This document shows positions 2,270 through 50,714 of a DNA stretch of 54,775 nt, in pieces. The stretch is from Candidatus Kerfeldbacteria bacterium (lineage in GTDB: Bacteria; Patescibacteriota; Patescibacteriia; UBA9570; XYC2-FULL-38-9). Made by a program: the position numbers and the translations under genes. Location: the NCBI GenBank assembly GCA_018500015.2, contig JAHBAR020000033.1, forward strand, positions 1 through 54,775. The letters are read 5' to 3'. The stretch's first letter is position 1. The number at the start of each line of letters is the position of its first letter. Below the pieces are notes generated by a model, which saw only the letters and a program-made list of their open reading frames with translations, did not search any database and was not told where the DNA came from.

Positions 2270-2689
2270 ATGCCTTTAGACACACAAGATGTGAATCGTC
2301 GCATCAATACAATCTCTCAACTTGCTATCATTATTGCGATCATTGCTGTTGTTTTTCTTATTGTTCTTTATGCTGTGCTGCGCAATCAACAAGAAGAGAT
2401 GCGTTCAGTAACAAACAATAACGTACATACAGAATCTATTTCCCAAACTCAATTAAGAGCATCAGATACGCAGTATGAAAATACCGTGAGCGCTCTTATA
2501 CAAGAGTATGTGAATGGTACGGCATCCGCACAACAGACAGGTCTAGAGTTAGAAAAGGTTTCTGTGACTTCAGCATATAAAAGCGTTCATGCGCAATTGT
2601 CAGCACTTTTTTTTGGAGTGCTCTCTGATGAGGATAAAAAAGCGCAGCTTATTGAAATGGATCAGCAGTATAGCTGGATGATTCCGTAG
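2270..2689 (+). CDS. Hypothetical single-pass membrane protein
   Basis: N-terminal hydrophobic helix; operonic spacing with neighbours. Confidence 0.7.
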   Translation: MPLDTQDVNRRINTISQLAIIIAIIAVVFLIVLYAVLRNQQEEMRSVTNNNVHTESISQTQLRASDTQYENTVSALIQEYVNGTASAQQTGLELEKVSVTSAYKSVHAQLSALFFGVLSDEDKKAQLIEMDQQYSWMIP

Positions 2690-44160: not shown

Positions 44161-45209
44161 TGCTTGGCGTTTTAGAAAAAATAGATCACATTTTTCGTGC
44201 GCACCACATCACGCAGTGGGCCTTGTTGCCCGTGAGTGAGAGTACTACTGCGCACCATCTCGACCAATGGCTTGCGCAGAACATGCACGGCACTATGCAG
44301 TGGATGCAACGCGAAGATACTGTGCGCAAACGCCACGATGTGCACCAGATTGTTCCGTGGGCACGCAGTATTATCACATGCGCGATTCCATACACGCCGC
44401 CTGTTATTCCTCCAGAGCTTCTGAGCGACCGGTCGCGTGGCATCATTGCCCGCTACGCACTATTTGACGATTATCACGACGTACTCACTCAGCAACTCAC
44501 CCATGCAGCAGAAGCACTCAAAAAAGAGCTCGGCGATTTTCAGTACCGCGTCTATGTCGACACTGGTCCTATCTTAGAGCGCGAATGGGCGCAGCGCGGT
44601 GAGCTCGGATTTTTCGGTCGCAATTCTAATCTCATCGATTGGAGTTTGGGTTCGTATCTTTTTTTGTGCGAGATCATTGTGAGCATTCCACTTCCAGAAG
44701 TAAAACGAAAACAGATCGGCAGTTGCGGACATTGCCGTGCGTGCAAAGATGGTTGTCCAACACAAGCTATCATCGACGATAAGATTGTTGATGCGCGCAA
44801 ATGCATTTCGTATCTCACCATCGAATACAAAGGTTCAATTCCAGAGGAGCTTCGCCCGCTCATGAAAAATCGAATTTACGGCTGTGATATTTGCCAAGAA
44901 GTATGTCCGTGGAATCGCAAGCCAAAATCAAACGAAGAGTGGATGCATACGCTCAATCTGCATCGCGATCGCATTGCACCACCACTCGAAAGCCTCCTCT
45001 TTTTTTCCGACGATGATTTTAAGCGCTGGACTCTTCACTCTCCAATGACGCGCGTCAAGCGTGAGTGCTTCATGCGCAATATCAGCGTAGCACTCGGCAA
45101 CTGGGGCACCCACGACGCATCACTTCTCTTAAAAGATATTGTGCGTCTCGACACCTCTCCGCTCGTTCTCGAGCATGCACAGTGGGCTCTCTCACAATGC
45201 AGCGGGTGA
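44160..45209 (+). CDS. queG: Epoxyqueuosine reductase
   Basis: HGTMQWM, IARYA..DYH, VDTGPILER, CGHCRACKDGCPT, CISYLTIE, GCDICQEVCPWN, RNISVALGN. Confidence 0.92.
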   Translation: MLGVLEKIDHIFRAHHITQWALLPVSESTTAHHLDQWLAQNMHGTMQWMQREDTVRKRHDVHQIVPWARSIITCAIPYTPPVIPPELLSDRSRGIIARYALFDDYHDVLTQQLTHAAEALKKELGDFQYRVYVDTGPILEREWAQRGELGFFGRNSNLIDWSLGSYLFLCEIIVSIPLPEVKRKQIGSCGHCRACKDGCPTQAIIDDKIVDARKCISYLTIEYKGSIPEELRPLMKNRIYGCDICQEVCPWNRKPKSNEEWMHTLNLHRDRIAPPLESLLFFSDDDFKRWTLHSPMTRVKRECFMRNISVALGNWGTHDASLLLKDIVRLDTSPLVLEHAQWALSQCSG

Positions 45210-45283
45210 CGCCGGAGCAGGGACCCTGGCCGCACGGAGCCGCAGGCGAGTACGGACGGGGTGCGTAGTGCGGCAGGACCCGC
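45202..45283. repeat. GC-rich structured intergenic element
   Basis: GCGGGT/ACCCGC and GCCGCAC/GTGCGGC pairings; GC far above background. Confidence 0.5.
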
Positions 45284-45302
45284 GTGTGATATACTGATGT
45301 GT

Positions 45303-46463
45303 ATGAAAATCGGTATCGACTGCCGCACAATGTTGAATCCCGCACTTGGAGAGCGCGCTGGTGTTGGGCATTACACAAAGGAACTTGTTGATCACCTCAT
45401 CCCAATTCTCAAAAAAGGGGATGAGCTCGTCTTGTTTTTCGATCAACGCATGCCAGACGCAGTCCTTACTACTTACGCAAAACACAAACAAGTGCGCGTT
45501 AAACGTTTTCCGCTCGCAAAGTACAAAAAATATTTGCCGTTTGGCTATTCACATGTTGTTGTAGCTCAAGCGCTTGCTCGTGAGAAGCTCGATGTCTTTC
45601 ACGCACCGGCGTACATCATTCCGTATCAGTATAAAGGAAAGTCTGTTGTCACCATTCACGACCTCGCTATCTACGCGCATCCGGAATGGTTTCCGTCAAA
45701 GCAGAAGTTTTCTACAGATGTTCTTGTCCCACGCTCGATTAAAAAATCAGAACGCGTCATCGCAGTCTCTCAAGCAACGGCTCGTTCGGTGCTCAAACAA
45801 TTTCGTGTTTTAGCTTCTGGTGTTGTCACAATATACGAAGGAGTAAACACGCAGCCCAAAATTTTTGCCGCAACAGCAAAACGTATCCTCGAGGAAAAAT
45901 CTATTGGTAAAAAATATCTCTTATTTATCGGCACTATTGAGCCTCGCAAAAATATTGATCAACTCATCAAGGCATTTGACCAAGCGATGCATACGTTAGG
46001 TGAGAGCGGCGATGACGTGCAACTCGTGCTCGCTGGTGGCAAAGGCTGGAATCACGAAGGCATTTTTCGCACAATTGCAAACGCTGATTACTCCACACGC
46101 GTGCGTTACGTCGGCTACATCAGCGACGAAGAAAAAACCGCACTCCTCAAAAACGCGATGTTGTTTGTCTTTCCATCATTGTGGGAAGGTTTTGGTTTGC
46201 CAGTGCTTGAAGCGCAAGCAGCGGGCATTCCTGTTATTACGTCCAACGTGTCATCGCTTCCAGAGGTTGGTGGAAGAGCTGCGGTGTACTGCGATCCAAA
46301 AAGTGTGACGAGTTTGAGCAAAGCGCTTGTGAGTGTTATTCGCAGCAAAGCAAAACGCACAGCAATGTCTGCTGCTGGTAAAAAACACGCCGCAACTTTT
46401 TCGTGGACACGTTGCGCAAAAGAGACGTATCAGGTATACAAGGAGCTCTATGCACAAGAGTAA
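45303..46463 (+). CDS. GT4 glycosyltransferase
   Basis: MKIGID, VTIHDL, GTIEPRKN, FPSLWEGFGLPVLEA. Confidence 0.92.
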   Translation: MKIGIDCRTMLNPALGERAGVGHYTKELVDHLIPILKKGDELVLFFDQRMPDAVLTTYAKHKQVRVKRFPLAKYKKYLPFGYSHVVVAQALAREKLDVFHAPAYIIPYQYKGKSVVTIHDLAIYAHPEWFPSKQKFSTDVLVPRSIKKSERVIAVSQATARSVLKQFRVLASGVVTIYEGVNTQPKIFAATAKRILEEKSIGKKYLLFIGTIEPRKNIDQLIKAFDQAMHTLGESGDDVQLVLAGGKGWNHEGIFRTIANADYSTRVRYVGYISDEEKTALLKNAMLFVFPSLWEGFGLPVLEAQAAGIPVITSNVSSLPEVGGRAAVYCDPKSVTSLSKALVSVIRSKAKRTAMSAAGKKHAATFSWTRCAKETYQVYKELYAQE

Positions 46464-47070
46464 GCTTCTCGATCAATTCCCAGAAATTTCCTACGGTATT
46501 GCTGTACCTGCTGAACTCGTGCCTACTAATGCTGTGCGTGGTGAACAGGTGCACAAAGAGACAATCGCTTGGGTAGGCGAGCATACAGAGTCTCCAATTG
46601 CTCGCACTGACGCGTTGCTTACTCGCGAAAAAGCAAAACCACTCGCAGTCTACACTGCCGATTGCGTTCCCGTTCTTCTCTACGAACCAAAACGTCGCAT
46701 CGTCGGCACAGTGCATGCAGGTTGGCGCGGCACGGCTCTTGAAATTGTGCGCAAAAGTATTGAAGCGCTCAAATGTCCGCCAAAAGATTTTCGTGTCATT
46801 CTTGGCCCTGCAATTTGTCCGAATTGTTTTGAAGTGGGCGCAGAGGTATCTCGACAGTTTGATCCCTCATGCGTGCGTGAATCAGAAAAAGAAGAAGGAA
46901 AGTTTCTCGTAGACCTTTGGCAAGCAAACATCAATCAATGTCTTGAGCTTGAAATTCCTGAAAGCCATATCGAAGTTATTCGTGTGTGCACTTTTGAGAC
47001 ACAAAAGCTCGCCTCATTTCGTCGCGATCATTCCGACTCGCGCAACTTTTCTTGGATCGCTCAAAAATAG
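46450..47070 (+). CDS. pgeF: PgeF/YfiH (laccase-like domain) protein
   Basis: QVH, TADCVPVLL, VHAGWRG, GPAICPNCFEVG, SFRRD. Confidence 0.9.
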   Translation: MHKSKLLDQFPEISYGIAVPAELVPTNAVRGEQVHKETIAWVGEHTESPIARTDALLTREKAKPLAVYTADCVPVLLYEPKRRIVGTVHAGWRGTALEIVRKSIEALKCPPKDFRVILGPAICPNCFEVGAEVSRQFDPSCVRESEKEEGKFLVDLWQANINQCLELEIPESHIEVIRVCTFETQKLASFRRDHSDSRNFSWIAQK

Positions 47071-47152
47071 CGTATAAAAAAACGAACGCTCCTCTGCGCA
47101 CAAGCCTAGAACCTCACCTCTCTTTCGTCAATATGCTATACTCTTTTTCATT

Positions 47153-47701
47153 ATGCATCATTCTGAAAATAATTTTGCGTTTATTGATAGTCAAAATATC
47201 AATCTTGGTATTAAAAGCCTTGGTTGGACGCTTGATTTTCGACGCTTTCGAATATTTCTTAGAGATAAGTATCACGTCACGCAGGCGTTTCTATTTATTG
47301 GATATGTCCCGGGCAATGAACGCTTATATGCAGCTCTGCAATCGTATGGTTATATCTGTATTTTTAAGCCCACGCTTCAGCTCGCAAACAAACAGGTGAA
47401 AGGTAATGTCGATGCAGAACTTGTGCTTCATACTATGATTCACAGCACAGAATTTGATAAGGCGGTGATCGTCTCTGGTGACGGAGATTTTTATTGTTTG
47501 GCTGAACACTTACTCCAAGAGCAGAAGTTACTCAAAATTTTGGTACCAAACTATAGATACTCAAGTTTATTAAAAAAACTCAATACTTCTAGTTTAACGA
47601 TGATTGATATATTAAGTGAACATCGCAAAAAATTGGAATATCACCATAAAGAAAAAGGCTCCGAGCGGGACTTGCCCCGATCAGAACCTATTTCGTCGTG
47701 A
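47153..47701 (+). CDS. NYN (LabA/DUF88, PIN-fold) ribonuclease
   Basis: AFIDSQN, KGNVDAELV, IVSGDGDF with the acidic residues intact; AT-richer than its neighbours. Confidence 0.88.
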   Translation: MHHSENNFAFIDSQNINLGIKSLGWTLDFRRFRIFLRDKYHVTQAFLFIGYVPGNERLYAALQSYGYICIFKPTLQLANKQVKGNVDAELVLHTMIHSTEFDKAVIVSGDGDFYCLAEHLLQEQKLLKILVPNYRYSSLLKKLNTSSLTMIDILSEHRKKLEYHHKEKGSERDLPRSEPISS

Positions 47702-47702
47702 T
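47648..47702 (-). ncRNA. Putative ~55-nt antisense hairpin RNA overlapping the NYN 3' end
   Basis: Minus strand reads ATCACGACGAAAT-AGGTTCTGATCGGGG-CAAG-TCCCGCTCGGAGCCT-TTTTCTTT, downstream of TTGACT-18-TATAGT. Confidence 0.6.
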
Positions 47703-47708
47703 GCTTAC

Positions 47709-47738
47709 ACTATATCTTAAAGATGGTAGTAAAGTCAA
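47709..47738 (-). promoter_or_regulatory. Antisense promoter
   Basis: TTGACT (47738-47733), 18-nt spacer, TATAGT (47714-47709). Confidence 0.6.
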
Positions 47739-47777
47739 TAGCTGTGTATACTCAATTAGACCAACAAGTAAAATAGT

Positions 47778-50714
47778 ATGAAACCCTCCACTCAGCACCC
47801 AGCAAAAAGCCAATTTTCCGAAATGGAAGAACGTGTCATTGAATTGTGGGACAAAAATAACACTTTTCAGCGTTCTGTTGATGAGCGCCCAGCTGATCAA
47901 GCCTACAGTTTTTACGATGGCCCACCGTTTGCAACAGGCCTTCCGCACTACGGTCATATTTTAGCCTCCATCAACAAAGATGTCGTGCCGCGTTATCACA
48001 CTATGCGGGGACAGCGTGTTGAGCGTGTCTGGGGTTGGGATTGTCATGGACTTCCTATCGAGAACATCATCGAAAAAGATTTGAATCTCAAAACCAAACA
48101 TGACATCGAAAATTTTGGTGTTGCTAAATTCAACGATGCCTGCAAAGCGACGGTGTTCACCTATGCAGAAGAGTGGAAAAAAACCATTCGTCGTCTGGGT
48201 CGTTGGGTCGACATGGAACACGACTACAAAACCATGGATCGCAACTTCATGGAAAGTGTGTGGTGGGTGTTTAAACAACTCTGGGATCGCAATTTGGTGT
48301 ATGAAGGCAAAAAGTCCATGCACATCTGCACACGCTGCGTAACGCCTCTTTCAAATTTTGAAGTCACGCTCGGATACAAAGATGTGAAAGACATTGCTGC
48401 TTTTGTGAAATTCCAGCTTACGGATTGTGAAGTACCAACATATATCATCGCGTGGACAACGACTCCATGGACATTGCCGGGCAACGTTGCGCTCGCAATC
48501 GGAAAAGACGTGCAGTATGTCGAAGTTGAATGCGAAGGCGCGCGTTACATTGTTTCATCTCACGCTGTCGAAAAATTATTTGCTGATAAAGAGCATTCAA
48601 TCACAAATCGCTACACAGCCGATCAACTCGCAGGAAAAGCGTATACACCAGTCTTTGATTTTTTCGCAAAAGATTCAGAGCTCGAAAATCACAGCAACGG
48701 TTGGAAAATCTACATTGGTGATTTTGTTTCTGATGTCGAAGGTACGGGCGTTGTGCATATCGCTCCAGCATTTGGTGAAGATGACATGAATTTGGGCAAG
48801 CAAGAGAAGTTGCCATTTGTTCAACACGTTTCAATGGATGGGAAGTTCACGCAAGAGTTAGAGAGTCTCGCTGGCATTCAGGTGAAACCAAAAGGGGAAG
48901 ATCAAGAGCGTTTGCAAGCCGACATCGCAATCATCAAAGCGCTCCAAGAAAACGGAACGCTCTTCAAAAAAGAAAATGTCACACACAGCTATCCACATTG
49001 TTGGCGCTGCGACACGCCGCTTCTTAACTACGCAACAAGCAGTTGGTTTGTGAGTGTGACTGAGATGAAAGAAGATCTGCTCGCCAACAATCAAAAAATC
49101 AATTGGCATCCAGAGCATCTCAAAGATGGTCGTTTTGGCCAGTGGCTCGAAAATGCACGCGACTGGGCAATTTCTCGCAACCGCTATTGGGGCACGCCGC
49201 TTCCTGTGTGGCGCGCTGACGACGGCGAACTGATGTGCGTAGGCAGCGTCAAAGAGCTCGAGCAATTGTCTGGCACTCACGCAACTGATCTTCACAAGCA
49301 GTTTGTCGACGAAATCACATTTGAAAAAAACGGCAAAACATTCCGCCGCATTCCCGAAGTCTTTGATTGTTGGTTTGAATCAGGGAGCATGCCATACGCA
49401 CAAATGCATTATCCATTTGAGAATAAGGAACACTTCGAAGCAAGTTTTCCAGCTGATTTTATTTCCGAAGCGCAAGATCAAACGCGCGGTTGGTTTTACA
49501 CACTGCATGTGCTTGCAACCGCTTTAACGCGCGGAGAGAATCCGGCAATTCCATCAACAGGAGGCACTACGCCCGCATTTAAAAATGTGAGCGTGTTTGG
49601 CATTGTGCTCGCAGCCGATGGAAAAAAGATGAGTAAGAAGCTCAAAAATTATCCTGACCCAACGGTCGTGCTCGAAAAATACGGAGCCGATGTACTGCGT
49701 TTGTACCTCGCGCAATCGCCGGTTATCGATATGGAACCACTCAACTTTGATGAAAAAGATGTTGAAGAGTTGCATCGAAAATACACCAATACATTGTGGA
49801 ACGTTTACACATTTTTCAAAACATTTGCTGACAACGAACCAGCCACAATCACAGAGATTACGAATCCAGATGAGCTCTCAGATCCAATGGATGAGTGGAT
49901 CATGACCAATCTTCAGTTGCTACTCAAGCGCGTGACTGCTGGATATGAAGCGTACCATTTGCGTGATGTCGCACTGCCACTTCTTGATTTTGTGCAAGAA
50001 CTTTCGACGTGGTATGTGCGCCGTATTCGTACCCGTTGCAAAAGCGAGAACGCTGCAGATCGTATGATGGCACTGCGCACGCTCTACACTGTGCTCAAAA
50101 ATTTTGTTTGCATCGCTGCGCCAGTTACACCATTCATCACTGAAGAGATCTATCAACAACTCCGTACACAATCCGACGCTGACTCTGTGCATCTTGCACA
50201 CTGGCCAGAGGTACATGAAGCGATGATCAACTCCAAAGTAATGGAGGATATGGAATGTGTTCGCGCTTCGATTGAAGCAGCGCTTGCTTTGCGCGCCGAA
50301 CACAAACTCAAAGTGCGCCAGCCATTGCAGAGCGTCACTATCACTGGCGAAGAGTTAGCAAAAGAATTGCAAGCAGTCATCGCAGAAGAGTTGAATGTCA
50401 AAGAAGTCCATGTTGGCTCTGCGTACGCAATCGACACAACACTCACACCTGAGCTCAAAGCCGAAGGACTCTTGCGCGAACTTGTACGCCAAACAAATGC
50501 ATTGCGCAAAAATCAGAAACTCACACTCAATGATCGCGTCAACATCACCATCGCAACACAATCCGAAGCGATCACTCAGATGCTCTCTGTCCATACAGAC
50601 GAATATCTTCGCCAAGTGCTAGGCTTGACACTCACAATCACAGAAGCCGGAGCGGGAGAAGCGATGAATTGCGACGGCGAGCAACTCACGATGAGCCTTA
50701 CTGTGCATGGCTAA
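47778..50714 (+). CDS. ileS: Isoleucyl-tRNA synthetase (type 2)
   Basis: DGPPFATGLPHYGH, GWDCHGLP, AWTTTPWTL, DWAISRNRYWG, DQTRGWFY, KMSKK. Confidence 0.96.
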   Translation: MKPSTQHPAKSQFSEMEERVIELWDKNNTFQRSVDERPADQAYSFYDGPPFATGLPHYGHILASINKDVVPRYHTMRGQRVERVWGWDCHGLPIENIIEKDLNLKTKHDIENFGVAKFNDACKATVFTYAEEWKKTIRRLGRWVDMEHDYKTMDRNFMESVWWVFKQLWDRNLVYEGKKSMHICTRCVTPLSNFEVTLGYKDVKDIAAFVKFQLTDCEVPTYIIAWTTTPWTLPGNVALAIGKDVQYVEVECEGARYIVSSHAVEKLFADKEHSITNRYTADQLAGKAYTPVFDFFAKDSELENHSNGWKIYIGDFVSDVEGTGVVHIAPAFGEDDMNLGKQEKLPFVQHVSMDGKFTQELESLAGIQVKPKGEDQERLQADIAIIKALQENGTLFKKENVTHSYPHCWRCDTPLLNYATSSWFVSVTEMKEDLLANNQKINWHPEHLKDGRFGQWLENARDWAISRNRYWGTPLPVWRADDGELMCVGSVKELEQLSGTHATDLHKQFVDEITFEKNGKTFRRIPEVFDCWFESGSMPYAQMHYPFENKEHFEASFPADFISEAQDQTRGWFYTLHVLATALTRGENPAIPSTGGTTPAFKNVSVFGIVLAADGKKMSKKLKNYPDPTVVLEKYGADVLRLYLAQSPVIDMEPLNFDEKDVEELHRKYTNTLWNVYTFFKTFADNEPATITEITNPDELSDPMDEWIMTNLQLLLKRVTAGYEAYHLRDVALPLLDFVQELSTWYVRRIRTRCKSENAADRMMALRTLYTVLKNFVCIAAPVTPFITEEIYQQLRTQSDADSVHLAHWPEVHEAMINSKVMEDMECVRASIEAALALRAEHKLKVRQPLQSVTITGEELAKELQAVIAEELNVKEVHVGSAYAIDTTLTPELKAEGLLRELVRQTNALRKNQKLTLNDRVNITIATQSEAITQMLSVHTDEYLRQVLGLTLTITEAGAGEAMNCDGEQLTMSLTVHG

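What the first reader, a model, noticed from the sequence alone, without database searches (positions are those of the whole stretch)
47153..47738. NYN/PIN RNase with a convergent antisense hairpin RNA: candidate RNA-antitoxin system
Seen: a solitary AT-rich NYN gene with intact catalytic Asps, its own TGcTATACT promoter and no protein antitoxin nearby. Past its stop, a minus-strand promoter TTGACT-18-TATAGT predicts a start at ~47702, giving AUCACGACGAAAU-AGGUUCUGAUCGGGG-CAAG-UCCCGCUCGGAGCCU-UUUUCUUU. The stem needs G-U pairs and has a U tract only on the minus strand, where no gene needs terminating (pgeF, NYN and ileS are all plus). It overlaps the last ~17 codons (KEKGSERDLPRSEPISS). Inference: a small RNA controlling an RNase, either by antisense pairing (type I-like) or by protein binding (type III/AbiF-like). 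I know of no described NYN system of this kind.
Basis: partly seen in the sequence, partly recalled or inferred. Interest (0 to 1): 0.82.

Follow-up and report, generated by a model that had tools for sequence, protein, structure and literature searches.

The report
Conserved antisense small RNA paired with NYN RNase
A short, independently promoted hairpin RNA gene sits tail-to-tail on a predicted NYN ribonuclease gene here and in about 170 related loci from many bacterial phyla, forming a compact two-part module that looks like a new RNA-controlled toxin-antitoxin-type system, although no experiment has yet shown what it does.

Summary
The 182-aa NYN gene (47153-47701, +) is overlapped tail-to-tail by a ~55-nt small-RNA gene on the minus strand (47702 to 47646). 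It has a TTGACT-18-TATAGT promoter, a single-stranded AUCACGA leader, a long hairpin and a U tract.

Of 177 sources with this NYN clade (Patescibacteria, Omnitrophota, Elusimicrobia, Chloroflexi, Nitrospirae and others), 170 have a covariance-model match beside the NYN 3' end. Two more were seen by eye, four are cut by contig ends and one lacks it. No Rfam family matches.

The stems covary: in 82 loci not used for the model, 97.4% of cells pair and 11 of 11 pairs show double changes. A near-consensus sigma-70 promoter is kept in 134 of 166 cases, against 3 of 890 random sites. G.U pairs favour the small-RNA strand 82 to 10.

The conserved NYN C-terminal peptide is the antisense reading of this RNA gene. 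No protein partner is conserved.

Most likely this is an RNA antitoxin or regulator of NYN with type I-like architecture. The invariant leader and loop, and three loci with the cassette inverted, suggest a protein also reads the RNA. Expression and toxicity are untested.

The parts
47134..47142 (+). Likely NYN promoter: extended -10 (TG-n-TATACT), ending 10 nt before the ATG, so the mRNA would have almost no leader and no Shine-Dalgarno sequence
   Evidence: Read from the sequence. Similar -10-like boxes lie close to the start codon in many homologous loci. As a class, NYN upstream regions are barely better than random: 10 of 169 reach 10 of 12 matches, against 2% of random windows. This part is inferred.
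47153..47701 (+). NYN (LabA-like, COG1432-type) predicted metal-dependent ribonuclease, 182 aa
   Evidence: Pfam PF01936 E 8.9e-13. The profile matches PDB 2qip at E 5.7e-12. AlphaFold2 model mean pLDDT 79.3. Foldseek matches 2qip at E 6.6e-8 and the MARF1 NYN domains 5yaa and 6fdl. Invariant D12, E89, D110, D112.
47648..47701 (+). C-terminal tail of NYN (KEKGSERDLPRSEPISS plus stop), which is the antisense reading of the small-RNA gene; probably an overprinted by-product, not a domain
   Evidence: The tail motif is conserved in homologues. The underlying DNA element persists whether the ORF stops before, inside or after it. The tail is predicted disordered, pLDDT below 50 for residues 168-171 and 173-182.
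47733..47738 (-). -35 box TTGACT of the small-RNA promoter
   Evidence: In 166 unique homologous upstream regions the -35 positions read T162, T163, G155, A153, C150, A119.
47709..47714 (-). -10 box TATAGT of the small-RNA promoter, 18-nt spacer, 6 nt before the conserved A of AUCAC
   Evidence: 134 of 166 homologous upstream regions reach at least 10 of 12 matches, against 3 of 890 random positions.
47646..47702 (-). Small-RNA gene (about 50-57 nt), predicted primary transcript from 47702 down to the U tract
   Evidence: Covariance model R2, trained without the window, matches 47646-47702 (-) at 30.4 bits, E 1.2e-4. It is the only credible match in the whole 1.07-Mb genome.
47690..47702 (-). 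Single-stranded 5' leader AUCACGACGAAAU; the AUCAC[G/C]A core is nearly invariant across all subtypes
   Evidence: Alignment A2: A1, T2, A4, C5 and A7 are invariant and C3 is at least 90% conserved in 69 sequences. The leader is unpaired in every individual fold.
47656..47689 (-). Long hairpin: 9 bp, a U.C mismatch, 4 bp, hexaloop GCAAGU. Most relatives have loop UUYCGU closed by GG/CC
   Evidence: Folds. Covariation. G.U against A.C strand asymmetry of 82 to 10.
47648..47655 (-). U tract (UUUUCUUU): intrinsic terminator tail of the small RNA
   Evidence: Sequence. The candidates extracted and aligned end in a run of at least four T, but the extraction pattern itself required a TTTT run, so this is partly by construction. 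On the NYN sense strand the hairpin is followed by AUUUCGUCGU only.

Best explanation
This is a self-contained, horizontally mobile two-gene module. One gene encodes a LabA-like NYN ribonuclease. The other is a dedicated ~55-nt small RNA transcribed convergently from its own near-consensus sigma-70 promoter.

The small RNA ends at an intrinsic terminator inside or just past the 3' end of the NYN reading frame. I read the small RNA as an antitoxin-like restraint on NYN. It would be made constitutively and in excess. Being perfectly complementary to the 3' end of the NYN mRNA (in the window, the last 17 codons and the stop), it would form a duplex with that mRNA.

The duplex would be cut by RNase III and/or would block termination of translation, so little NYN is made. 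This is the architecture of Gram-positive type I toxin-antitoxin loci (txpA/RatA, bsrG/SR4, par RNAI/RNAII).

The invariant 5' AUCAC[G/C]A leader and the GG-UUYCGU-CC apical loop are not needed for cis-antisense pairing. I infer that a protein, most economically NYN itself, also recognises the RNA. If transcription stops or the module is lost, the short RNA would decay and NYN would be released.

Shown: the gene structure, its conservation, the covarying fold, the promoter and the exclusive linkage to this NYN clade. Inferred: transcription, NYN toxicity, the direction of control and the molecular mechanism.
For: (1) Linkage. 170 of 177 sources with this NYN clade have a model match beside the NYN 3' end. 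Two more were seen by eye, four are cut by contig ends and one (L049) lacks it. Genome-wide in five multi-copy genomes, 12 of 13 matches are NYN-linked. The own genome has one credible match, at the NYN.

(2) The 5' end lies at a fixed 535-590 nt from the NYN start in nearly all loci, while the stop codon drifts. Among 166 convergent loci, 30 have no overlap, 76 overlap by 1-20 nt, 41 by 21-45 nt and 19 by more than 45 nt. In 16 the stop abuts +1, as in the window.

(3) Promoter. 134 of 166 unique upstream regions reach at least 10 of 12 matches to TTGACA-N16-19-TATAAT, against 3 of 890 random sites. Upstream of NYN only 10 of 169 do. This fits antitoxin excess.

(4) Structure. Subtype B: 99.6% paired, 7 of 11 pairs with double changes, 0 of 500 shuffles as high. 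Held-out loci: 97.4% paired, 11 of 11 pairs, 123 cells, 0 of 500.

(5) Strand. 82 G.U cells against 10 A.C cells. The small-RNA strand is more stable in 49 of 69 sequences.

(6) No conserved protein neighbour: the maximum is 8 of 162 loci.

(7) Accessory or selfish behaviour. Close homologues occur in only 14 of 60 relatives, with up to 8 NYN matches per genome. One contig carries three modules in tandem. The module spans several phyla. It has lower GC than its flanks. It sits in a variable pgeF-ileS gap that holds a DUF167 gene or nothing in relatives.

(8) RNase III is encoded in the genome.

(9) Type I systems with convergent 3' overlap, a shared bidirectional terminator and nuclease toxins are on record (passages of PMC8167048).
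Against: There is no expression data. No RNA run was listed for this stretch, and that blank is not evidence either way.

NYN toxicity is unknown. No member of NYN.COG1432 had been studied as a nuclease according to passages of PMC5499597.

Three distinct loci carry the whole cassette on the same strand as NYN: L007, L110 (which is the same contig as L196) and L189. These represent two independent events. There the RNA has no above-chance complementarity to the NYN mRNA. Antisense pairing therefore cannot be the whole story.

Conserved leader and loop sequences are unusual for a pure cis-antisense RNA.

One intact NYN (L049) has no such RNA, and one RNA (G051:C8) has no NYN.

Within the window's own subtype A, covariation is not above shuffles: 82.4% against 82.0% paired.

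The convergent arrangement may simply be inherited rather than selected. Related loci are not independent, some loci occur in both collections, and the model-fitted alignments lean towards the structure.
Confidence: 0.5

Rival explanations
1. Protein-binding RNA partner (works like type III, or as an RNP cofactor). The small RNA is bound by the NYN protein through its 5' single-stranded AUCAC[G/C]A leader at the base of a hairpin and through its conserved apical loop. It would act as a pseudo-substrate inhibitor, or alternatively as a specificity or activating subunit of the nuclease. The tail-to-tail overlap would then be compaction, not mechanism.
For: The leader and the GG-UUYCGU-CC loop are conserved across subtypes whose stems differ completely. 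The cassette has been inverted at least twice (L007/L110 and L189) with promoter, leader, hairpin and U tract intact, NYN intact, and no complementarity to the NYN mRNA. The leader shows no complementarity to the NYN translation start: -5.5 against -4.9 kcal/mol for shuffles. NYN is the only conserved neighbour. A 5' single strand next to a duplex is the kind of substrate that PIN-like/FEN-like nucleases take; this point is my knowledge, not a test.
Against: No binding was tested, and the tools here cannot model protein-RNA complexes. About 98% of loci (166 of 170) keep the antisense overlap. The inverted loci are few and could be decaying. The system does not have the type III architecture (tandem repeats upstream of the toxin under one promoter), as described in passages of PMC8167048.
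Confidence: 0.3
2. Ordinary antisense tuning of a non-toxic accessory RNase. The small RNA merely sets the NYN mRNA level, 3'-end formation or read-through into downstream genes, by transcriptional interference or as an insulator. There is no addiction or defence logic.
For: It has the same architecture as the main explanation. LabA-type NYN proteins have regulatory, non-toxic roles in cyanobacteria (passage of PMC5499597). In subtypes with A and U runs on both sides, the hairpin could end both transcripts. In the window NYN and ileS are co-directional, so an insulator would be useful.
Against: The distribution is patchy, multi-copy and cross-phylum, with tandem arrays, which is typical of selfish or defence modules. 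The genomic neighbours differ from locus to locus, so no fixed downstream gene is being protected. The sequence motifs are conserved beyond what interference needs.
Confidence: 0.13
3. There is no small RNA. The conserved hairpin is a sense-strand 3'-UTR element of the NYN mRNA (stabiliser, terminator or autoregulatory site) or a DNA-level site (recombination or mobile-element end), and the 'promoter' is fortuitous.
For: The hairpin also folds on the sense strand: z -2.86 in the window, and the sense strand is more stable in 20 of 69 sequences. Composite or duplicated hairpins occur in L053, L067, L016 and L095, which hints at cassette exchange.
Against: The -35 and -10 boxes sit with fixed spacing to the AUCAC start in 134 of 166 cases, against 0.3% of random sites. 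The U tract is only on the antisense strand in the window and in the subtype-B sequences I read. The G.U asymmetry is 82 to 10. When the element is inverted, promoter, leader, hairpin and U tract move together as one transcription unit. No direct or inverted terminal repeats or recombinase genes were seen among the neighbours.
Confidence: 0.04

Closest known systems
Type I toxin-antitoxin loci with convergent 3' overlap (B. subtilis txpA/RatA and bsrG/SR4; E. faecalis pAD1 par RNAI/RNAII-Fst)
   Same: The toxin gene and a small-RNA gene are transcribed towards each other and overlap at their 3' ends. The RNA has its own, stronger promoter. Duplexes are RNase III substrates. The par RNAs share a bidirectional terminator (passages of PMC8167048). 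Here there is a convergent overlap or abutment in 166 of 170 loci, a near-consensus small-RNA promoter, rnc in the genome, and in some subtypes a hairpin with A and U runs on both sides.
   Different: Known type I toxins are mostly hydrophobic peptides under 60 aa. Here the partner is a soluble predicted nuclease of 160-185 aa. The RNA is only a leader plus one hairpin. It carries sequence motifs conserved across phyla. It tolerates inversion to a non-antisense position. Toxicity and regulation are untested.
SymE/SymR and RalR/RalA (type I systems with nuclease toxins, E. coli)
   Same: They set a precedent for an enzyme (endonuclease or DNase) controlled by a small antisense RNA (passages of PMC8167048).
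   Different: SymR pairs with the 5' UTR of symE. The folds are unrelated (SymE's AbrB-like fold is recalled, not tested here). They have a narrow enterobacterial distribution. NYN mRNAs here appear nearly leaderless, so control at the 5' end is unlikely.
Type III toxin-antitoxin systems (ToxIN, CptIN, TenpIN)
   Same: An RNA neutralises an endoribonuclease by direct binding. This is a possible way for the present RNA to work, suggested by its conserved leader and loop and by the inverted loci.
   Different: In type III systems the antitoxin is a tandem-repeat array upstream of the toxin under a single promoter, with a terminator in between, and it is processed by the toxin (passages of PMC8167048). 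Here there is a single hairpin with its own promoter, downstream and convergent, and an NYN fold instead of a ToxN fold (the ToxN fold is recalled).
LabA-like NYN proteins (Pfam PF01936, NYN.COG1432; structure 2qip) and PIN-domain VapC toxins
   Same: The protein is a member of PF01936, with the conserved acidic residues and a 2qip-like fold. PIN-like nucleases are common toxins of type II systems (the title and abstract of PMC5499597 name the superfamily; that VapC proteins are toxins is my knowledge).
   Different: No NYN.COG1432 member had a described RNA partner or a tested nuclease role in the passages read. VapC toxins are neutralised by protein antitoxins, and none is conserved here.

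Membership tests
NYN domain, LabA-like (Pfam PF01936 / NYN.COG1432) | Profile match above the curated cut-off | tested here: met
   49.4 bits against a cut-off of 24.2, E 8.9e-13, residues 10-130.
NYN domain, LabA-like (Pfam PF01936 / NYN.COG1432) | Conserved acidic residues predicted to bind the metal ion | tested here: met
   D12, E89, D110 and D112 are invariant and D87 at least 90% conserved in 27 sequences. The requirement for four acidic residues is from passages of PMC5499597.
NYN domain, LabA-like (Pfam PF01936 / NYN.COG1432) | PIN-like fold resembling 2qip | tested here: met
   Foldseek matches 2qip at E 6.6e-8, TM 0.58/0.65, and MARF1 NYN 5yaa at TM 0.59/0.71. Model mean pLDDT 79.3.
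Type I toxin-antitoxin system | The antitoxin is a small RNA with its own promoter, complementary to the toxin mRNA | tested here: met
   This is met at the sequence level only. The promoter is conserved and there is cis-complementarity to the NYN 3' end in 166 of 170 loci. Transcription is not shown. It is not met in the three distinct inverted loci.
Type I toxin-antitoxin system | The protein is toxic when the RNA is absent, and the RNA represses its synthesis | not testable with these tools
   This needs expression experiments. One intact NYN without the RNA (L049) exists.
Type I toxin-antitoxin system | Typical toxin: small (under 60 aa) hydrophobic membrane peptide | tested here: not met
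   The protein is a 182-aa soluble NYN nuclease fold. Nuclease toxins (SymE, RalR) are accepted exceptions.
Type III toxin-antitoxin system (ToxIN-like) | The antitoxin is an array of tandem repeats upstream of the toxin, under a single promoter, with a terminator between them | tested here: not met
   There is a single hairpin, downstream and convergent, with its own promoter. It is a single copy in the genome.
Type III toxin-antitoxin system (ToxIN-like) | The RNA binds and inhibits the toxin protein | not testable with these tools
   No protein-RNA modelling or assay is available. The only evidence is indirect, from conserved motifs and inverted loci.
Any described RNA family (Rfam 15) | Covariance-model match | tested here: not met
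   No match over the element at E up to 10 in window 46000-49000. No match at E up to 1 in nine homologous loci of different subtypes.
Bacterial small-RNA gene (sigma-70 promoter plus intrinsic terminator) | -35 and -10 boxes at proper spacing, a stable GC-containing hairpin, then a U run | tested here: met
   The hairpin z-score is -4.63. The simple terminator scan did not list it.

The most novel reading that the evidence does not exclude
The NYN protein and the small RNA form a ribonucleoprotein. The RNA is an independently transcribed, single-hairpin, protein-binding antitoxin, or a licensing subunit, recognised through its invariant AUCAC[G/C]A 5' flap and UUYCGU loop. That would be a new class of RNA-protein toxin-antitoxin or defence module: neither type I nor type III in architecture, spread by horizontal transfer through Patescibacteria and at least six other phyla, and releasing a PIN-like RNase when transcription collapses, for example on phage infection.
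Probability: 0.3. Interest if true: 0.88.

Novelty: new variant of a known kind. Interest (0 to 1): 0.78.

Why it matters
If confirmed, this defines a large, previously unannotated small-RNA family. About 170 loci were examined here. Each collection scan found more than 570 NYN relatives, and 8000 of 8000 scored protein candidates matched. The RNA has a clear partner, and it would give the first functional handle on LabA-like NYN nucleases in bacteria, which passages of a 2017 classification (PMC5499597) describe as never studied as nucleases.

It would extend RNA-antitoxin systems to a PIN-like enzyme toxin, and to the Candidate Phyla Radiation, whose tiny genomes are thought poor in known regulatory RNAs and defence systems (my knowledge).

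It also shows a clean case of overprinting. A 'conserved C-terminal peptide' of a protein family turns out to be the shadow of an RNA gene on the other strand. This matters for annotation and for protein-family models.

The module is about 650 bp and self-contained, so the decisive experiments are simple to set up in E. coli.

Tried and rejected
(1) Expression. The look-up of sequencing runs for window 46300-48800, kind rna: no RNA holder listed.

(2) Earlier findings of this scan were not open to the session.

(3) Rfam showed nothing over the element. The weak narK and PART1_3 rows lie in ileS and are below threshold.

(4) RNAalifold on the plain MAFFT alignment of all subtypes (A2) gave only 4 pairs and -0.5 kcal/mol. 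The subtypes differ in arm length, so MAFFT misaligns them. I switched to a subtype alignment and to covariance-model alignments.

(5) Subtype A alone (15 sequences, including two misaligned rows, L038 and L019, which I kept) gave 82.4% paired against 82.0% in shuffles. This is not significant.

(6) Trans-pairing of the leader with the NYN translation start showed no signal in 169 loci.

(7) Complementarity of the RNA to the NYN mRNA in the three inverted loci was equal to shuffles.

(8) A conserved protein partner was sought and none was found.

(9) Defence and phage libraries. PADLOC gave only a weak partial match to a longer 'NYN' model (E 1.3e-7) and HEC-09 (3e-4). NCBIfam gave none. PHROGs gave nothing below 0.03.

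(10) Phage carriage: only 2 relatives in IMG/VR, both with the RNA.

(11) Hammerhead, T-loop, k-turn and anti-Shine-Dalgarno mimicry were considered by eye and dropped, because the motifs do not fit. No tool test was made.

The second model, R2, found it.

(13) Supplements of papers were not consulted.
Full report
THE LOCUS. The window comes from a 1.07-Mb, 48-contig genome that is 98.8% complete. Its relatives are named in public records as Patescibacteria (Candidate Phyla Radiation) lineages. Around the finding all genes are on the plus strand. They are a QueG-like reductase, a GT4 glycosyltransferase, pgeF (PF02578), the 182-aa ORF 47153-47701, ileS (PF00133 with the anticodon-binding domain) and recO. 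The ORF is an NYN domain protein: PF01936, E 8.9e-13. Its only solved relative by sequence is 2qip. An AlphaFold2 model (mean pLDDT 79.3) matches 2qip at E 6.6e-8 and the MARF1 NYN domains. The acidic residues D12, E89, D110 and D112 are invariant and D87 nearly so. The gene has 35-41% GC, against about 45-50% on either side.

On the minus strand the scan finds TTGACT-18-TATAGT at 47738..47709. Six bases further on, at 47702, begins AUCACGACGAAAU. This is followed by a 13-bp interrupted hairpin (47689-47656) and UUUUCUUU (47655-47648). The minus-strand RNA folds at -27.6 kcal/mol, z -4.63, with 0 of 200 shuffles as stable. The plus strand gives -18.8 kcal/mol, z -2.86. The RNA gene overlaps the last 17 codons and the stop of NYN, and the stop codon abuts +1.

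THE KEY RESULT: THE ELEMENT IS CONSERVED, AND IT IS THE RNA GENE THAT IS CONSERVED, NOT THE PEPTIDE. Homologues share a C-terminal motif of the form NEKGSRRDxTLREPxSS. In 14 close homologue loci from related genomes the same DNA element is present whether the NYN frame stops before it, inside it or at its far end. Among 166 convergent loci the overlap of the ORF with the RNA gene varies widely. It is zero or negative in 30, 1-20 nt in 76, 21-45 nt in 41 and more than 45 nt in 19. In 16 loci the stop abuts +1 exactly as in the window. The 5' end of the RNA gene stays at about 535-590 nt from the NYN start throughout. The tail is predicted disordered. The 'conserved tail' is therefore the antisense reading of an RNA gene. 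GGY-UCN-CGN and CGN-GAR-CCN are mutually complementary, so a hairpin reads as G-S-R...R-E-P.

EXTENT AND LINKAGE. The protein search returned 8000 hits of 8000 scored candidates. Scans of species genomes and of metagenomes each found more than 570 relatives, of which the best 80 were kept. IMG/VR gave only 2. Named records include Patescibacteria lineages, Omnitrophota, Elusimicrobia, Chloroflexi, Nitrospirae, Deltaproteobacteria/Syntrophorhabdus, Planctomycetales and Ignavibacterium.

I built a covariance model from 24 subtype-B sequences (R1). I enlarged it with its own confident matches (R2, from 61 sequences, not including the window). R2 finds the window's RNA at 47646-47702 (-), 30.4 bits, E 1.2e-4.

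Over the first 95 sources R2 matches beside NYN in 92. Of these, 61 were in its training set. L018 and L111 end at contig edges, and L049 has no such element.

Over 82 further loci not used for the model it matches in 78. L140 and L205 carry clear variants that I saw by eye. L153 and L200 are cut by contig ends.

The two sets are not fully independent. 

Whole-genome searches gave 13 matches in five genomes that hold several NYN copies. Twelve lie at NYN 3' ends, one of which is cut by a contig end. One (G051:C8:2515-2572) is an orphan. The own genome has a single credible match, and plain DNA search found no second copy. One Taylorbacteria contig (L036) has three NYN genes in a row, each with its own RNA gene. 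More distant NYN paralogues, including one in this genome (C22), have none.

IT IS A TRANSCRIPTION UNIT ON THE STRAND OPPOSITE TO NYN.
(i) In 166 unique upstream regions the best -35/-10 pair reaches at least 10 of 12 matches in 134. This compares with 3 of 890 random positions in the same loci. The spacers are 16-19 nt, and the -10 box most often ends 6 nt before the AUCAC.
(ii) Stems covary. Subtype B: 99.6% of cells paired, 7 of 11 pairs with changes on both sides, 0 of 500 shuffles as high, and slid controls 54-73% paired. All subtypes aligned to the model: 98.0%, 10 of 11 pairs. Held-out loci: 97.4%, 11 of 11 pairs, 123 compensated cells, 0 of 500. The last two alignments are fitted to the model, and related sequences inflate such counts. 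The subtype-B alignment is a plain MAFFT alignment.
(iii) G.U pairs, which would be C.A mismatches on the sense strand, outnumber A.C cells 82 to 10. The antisense strand folds better in 49 of 69 sequences.
(iv) In three distinct loci the whole cassette (promoter, leader, hairpin and U tract) is inverted as a unit.
(v) No Rfam family matches.

ANATOMY OF THE FAMILY. All members have a single-stranded 5' leader beginning AUCAC[G/C]A. In 69 sequences, A1, T2, A4, C5 and A7 are invariant. All have one long irregular hairpin whose outer helix pairs the purine-rich segment after the leader with the segment before the U tract. The apical stem GG/CC usually closes a hexaloop UUYCGU, and the window has GCAAGU instead. 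A U run follows. At least five subtypes differ completely in the middle of the stem. Within the window's subtype A the stem is conserved in sequence rather than covarying: 82.4% paired against 82.0% in shuffles, with a U.G wobble kept in 13 of 15.

CONTEXT. No protein family is a conserved neighbour. The largest real cluster occurs in 8 of 162 loci and is itself a distant NYN paralogue. In the window's family the GT-pgeF-ileS synteny is kept, but the pgeF-ileS gap varies from 129 nt to about 1170 nt. In several relatives it holds a DUF167/YggU gene, and in none of those examined an NYN. The 650-bp module is therefore an insertion particular to this lineage. Close homologues (E below 1e-30) occur in 14 of 60 relatives searched, with up to 8 NYN matches in one genome. 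NYN genes often carry a -10-like box a few bases before the start codon and no visible Shine-Dalgarno sequence. As a class, however, their upstream regions are barely better than random: 10 of 169 reach 10 of 12 matches. This contrasts sharply with the small-RNA promoter.

HOW IT MOST LIKELY WORKS. The layout is that of Gram-positive type I toxin-antitoxin loci. Those have convergent genes, 3' overlap, a stronger promoter for the RNA and RNase III cleavage of the duplex. The pAD1 par RNAs even share a bidirectional terminator (passages of PMC8167048). RNase III is encoded in this genome. In the window the duplex would cover the last 17 codons and the stop. Cleavage or ribosome blockage there would give a non-stop message. 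In subtypes where the ORF ends at the edge of the RNA gene, the duplex would remove the 3' hairpin of the message. I infer that this restrains NYN synthesis.

Pure cis-antisense action does not explain two things. One is the phylum-spanning conservation of the leader and loop. The other is the survival of the cassette in the same-strand orientation in L007, L110 and L189. These are two independent events, of subtypes B and A. There the RNA has no above-chance complementarity to the NYN message. The leader is not complementary to the NYN translation start either. A protein must read these motifs, and NYN is the only constant neighbour. I therefore give substantial weight (0.3) to direct binding, which works like type III. 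The two modes are not exclusive.

WHAT IS NOT SHOWN. Transcription, toxicity, regulation and binding are all untested. No RNA sequencing run was listed for this stretch. One intact NYN lacks the RNA (L049), and one RNA lacks an NYN gene beside it.

COMPARISON AND NOVELTY. The protein is a member of PF01936 (the LabA-like NYN.COG1432 group). Passages of the 2017 PIN-superfamily classification describe this group as of unknown function and not studied as nucleases, with no RNA partner mentioned. The module meets the sequence-level features of a type I system but not the 'small hydrophobic toxin' norm. It fails the architecture of type III systems. Six full-text searches combined NYN, LabA, COG1432, Patescibacteria or candidate phyla radiation with antitoxin, antisense, small RNA or toxin. 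I read the listings, plus passages of two papers, and none described such a pair. I rate it a new variant of a known kind (RNA-antitoxin modules) and a new RNA family.

Noticed in passing
window 47071-47777, compared with L117-L125: The pgeF-ileS intergenic gap is a variable spot in this family. It is 129 nt and empty in G003. It is about 380-400 nt with a DUF167/YggU gene in G006 and G001. It is about 800-1170 nt with other ORFs in G004, G005, G008, G009 and G010. The NYN module fills it only in this genome.
   Followed up: partly
L053:3488-3592, L067:2880-2982, L016:1960-2071, L095:3470-3639: Composite or doubled elements. A complete small-RNA gene of one subtype is followed directly by a second hairpin and U tract of another subtype that lacks its own leader, or (in L095) by two full copies. 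This suggests that small-RNA cassettes are exchanged or inserted in front of older ones.
   Followed up: partly
L036:1275-5375: Three NYN genes lie in tandem (52%, 58% and 37% identical to the window protein). Each is followed by its own convergent small-RNA gene.
   Followed up: partly
L127 (G051:C8) 2515-2572 (+): An orphan small-RNA match (39 bits, E 9e-7) lies between a metalloprotease-like gene and map, with no NYN gene next to it.
   Followed up: partly
L055:2897-2952, L059:2754-2806, L088:2885-2936 (all -): Weak extra small-RNA-like matches (20-25 bits) lie just upstream of the NYN start, after unrelated genes. They may be remnants of a lost upstream module.
   Followed up: partly
L049:3001-3629: This is the only evaluable locus with an intact NYN (catalytic motifs present) but no small-RNA gene. 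A different short palindrome follows the stop.
   Followed up: partly
G000:C22:11280-11687 (+): A second, distant NYN paralogue occurs in the same genome (23% identity, E 1.8e-4), without any small-RNA match.
   Followed up: no
L130, L131 (IMG/VR contigs): The only two viral-collection contigs with this NYN clade also carry the convergent small-RNA gene (E 2.2e-8 and 1.3e-13).
   Followed up: no
window 47733-47760: The -35 box of the small-RNA promoter lies back to back with a TATACT box (47748-47753, + strand) about 25 nt before the ileS start. In relatives, ileS has a TTGCA-N17-TATAAT promoter at the equivalent place. The two may form a divergent promoter pair here.
   Followed up: no
window 44950-45400: A local GC peak (0.57-0.58) occurs at the queG end and glycosyltransferase start, with several long overlapping shadow ORFs. 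It was not examined.
   Followed up: no
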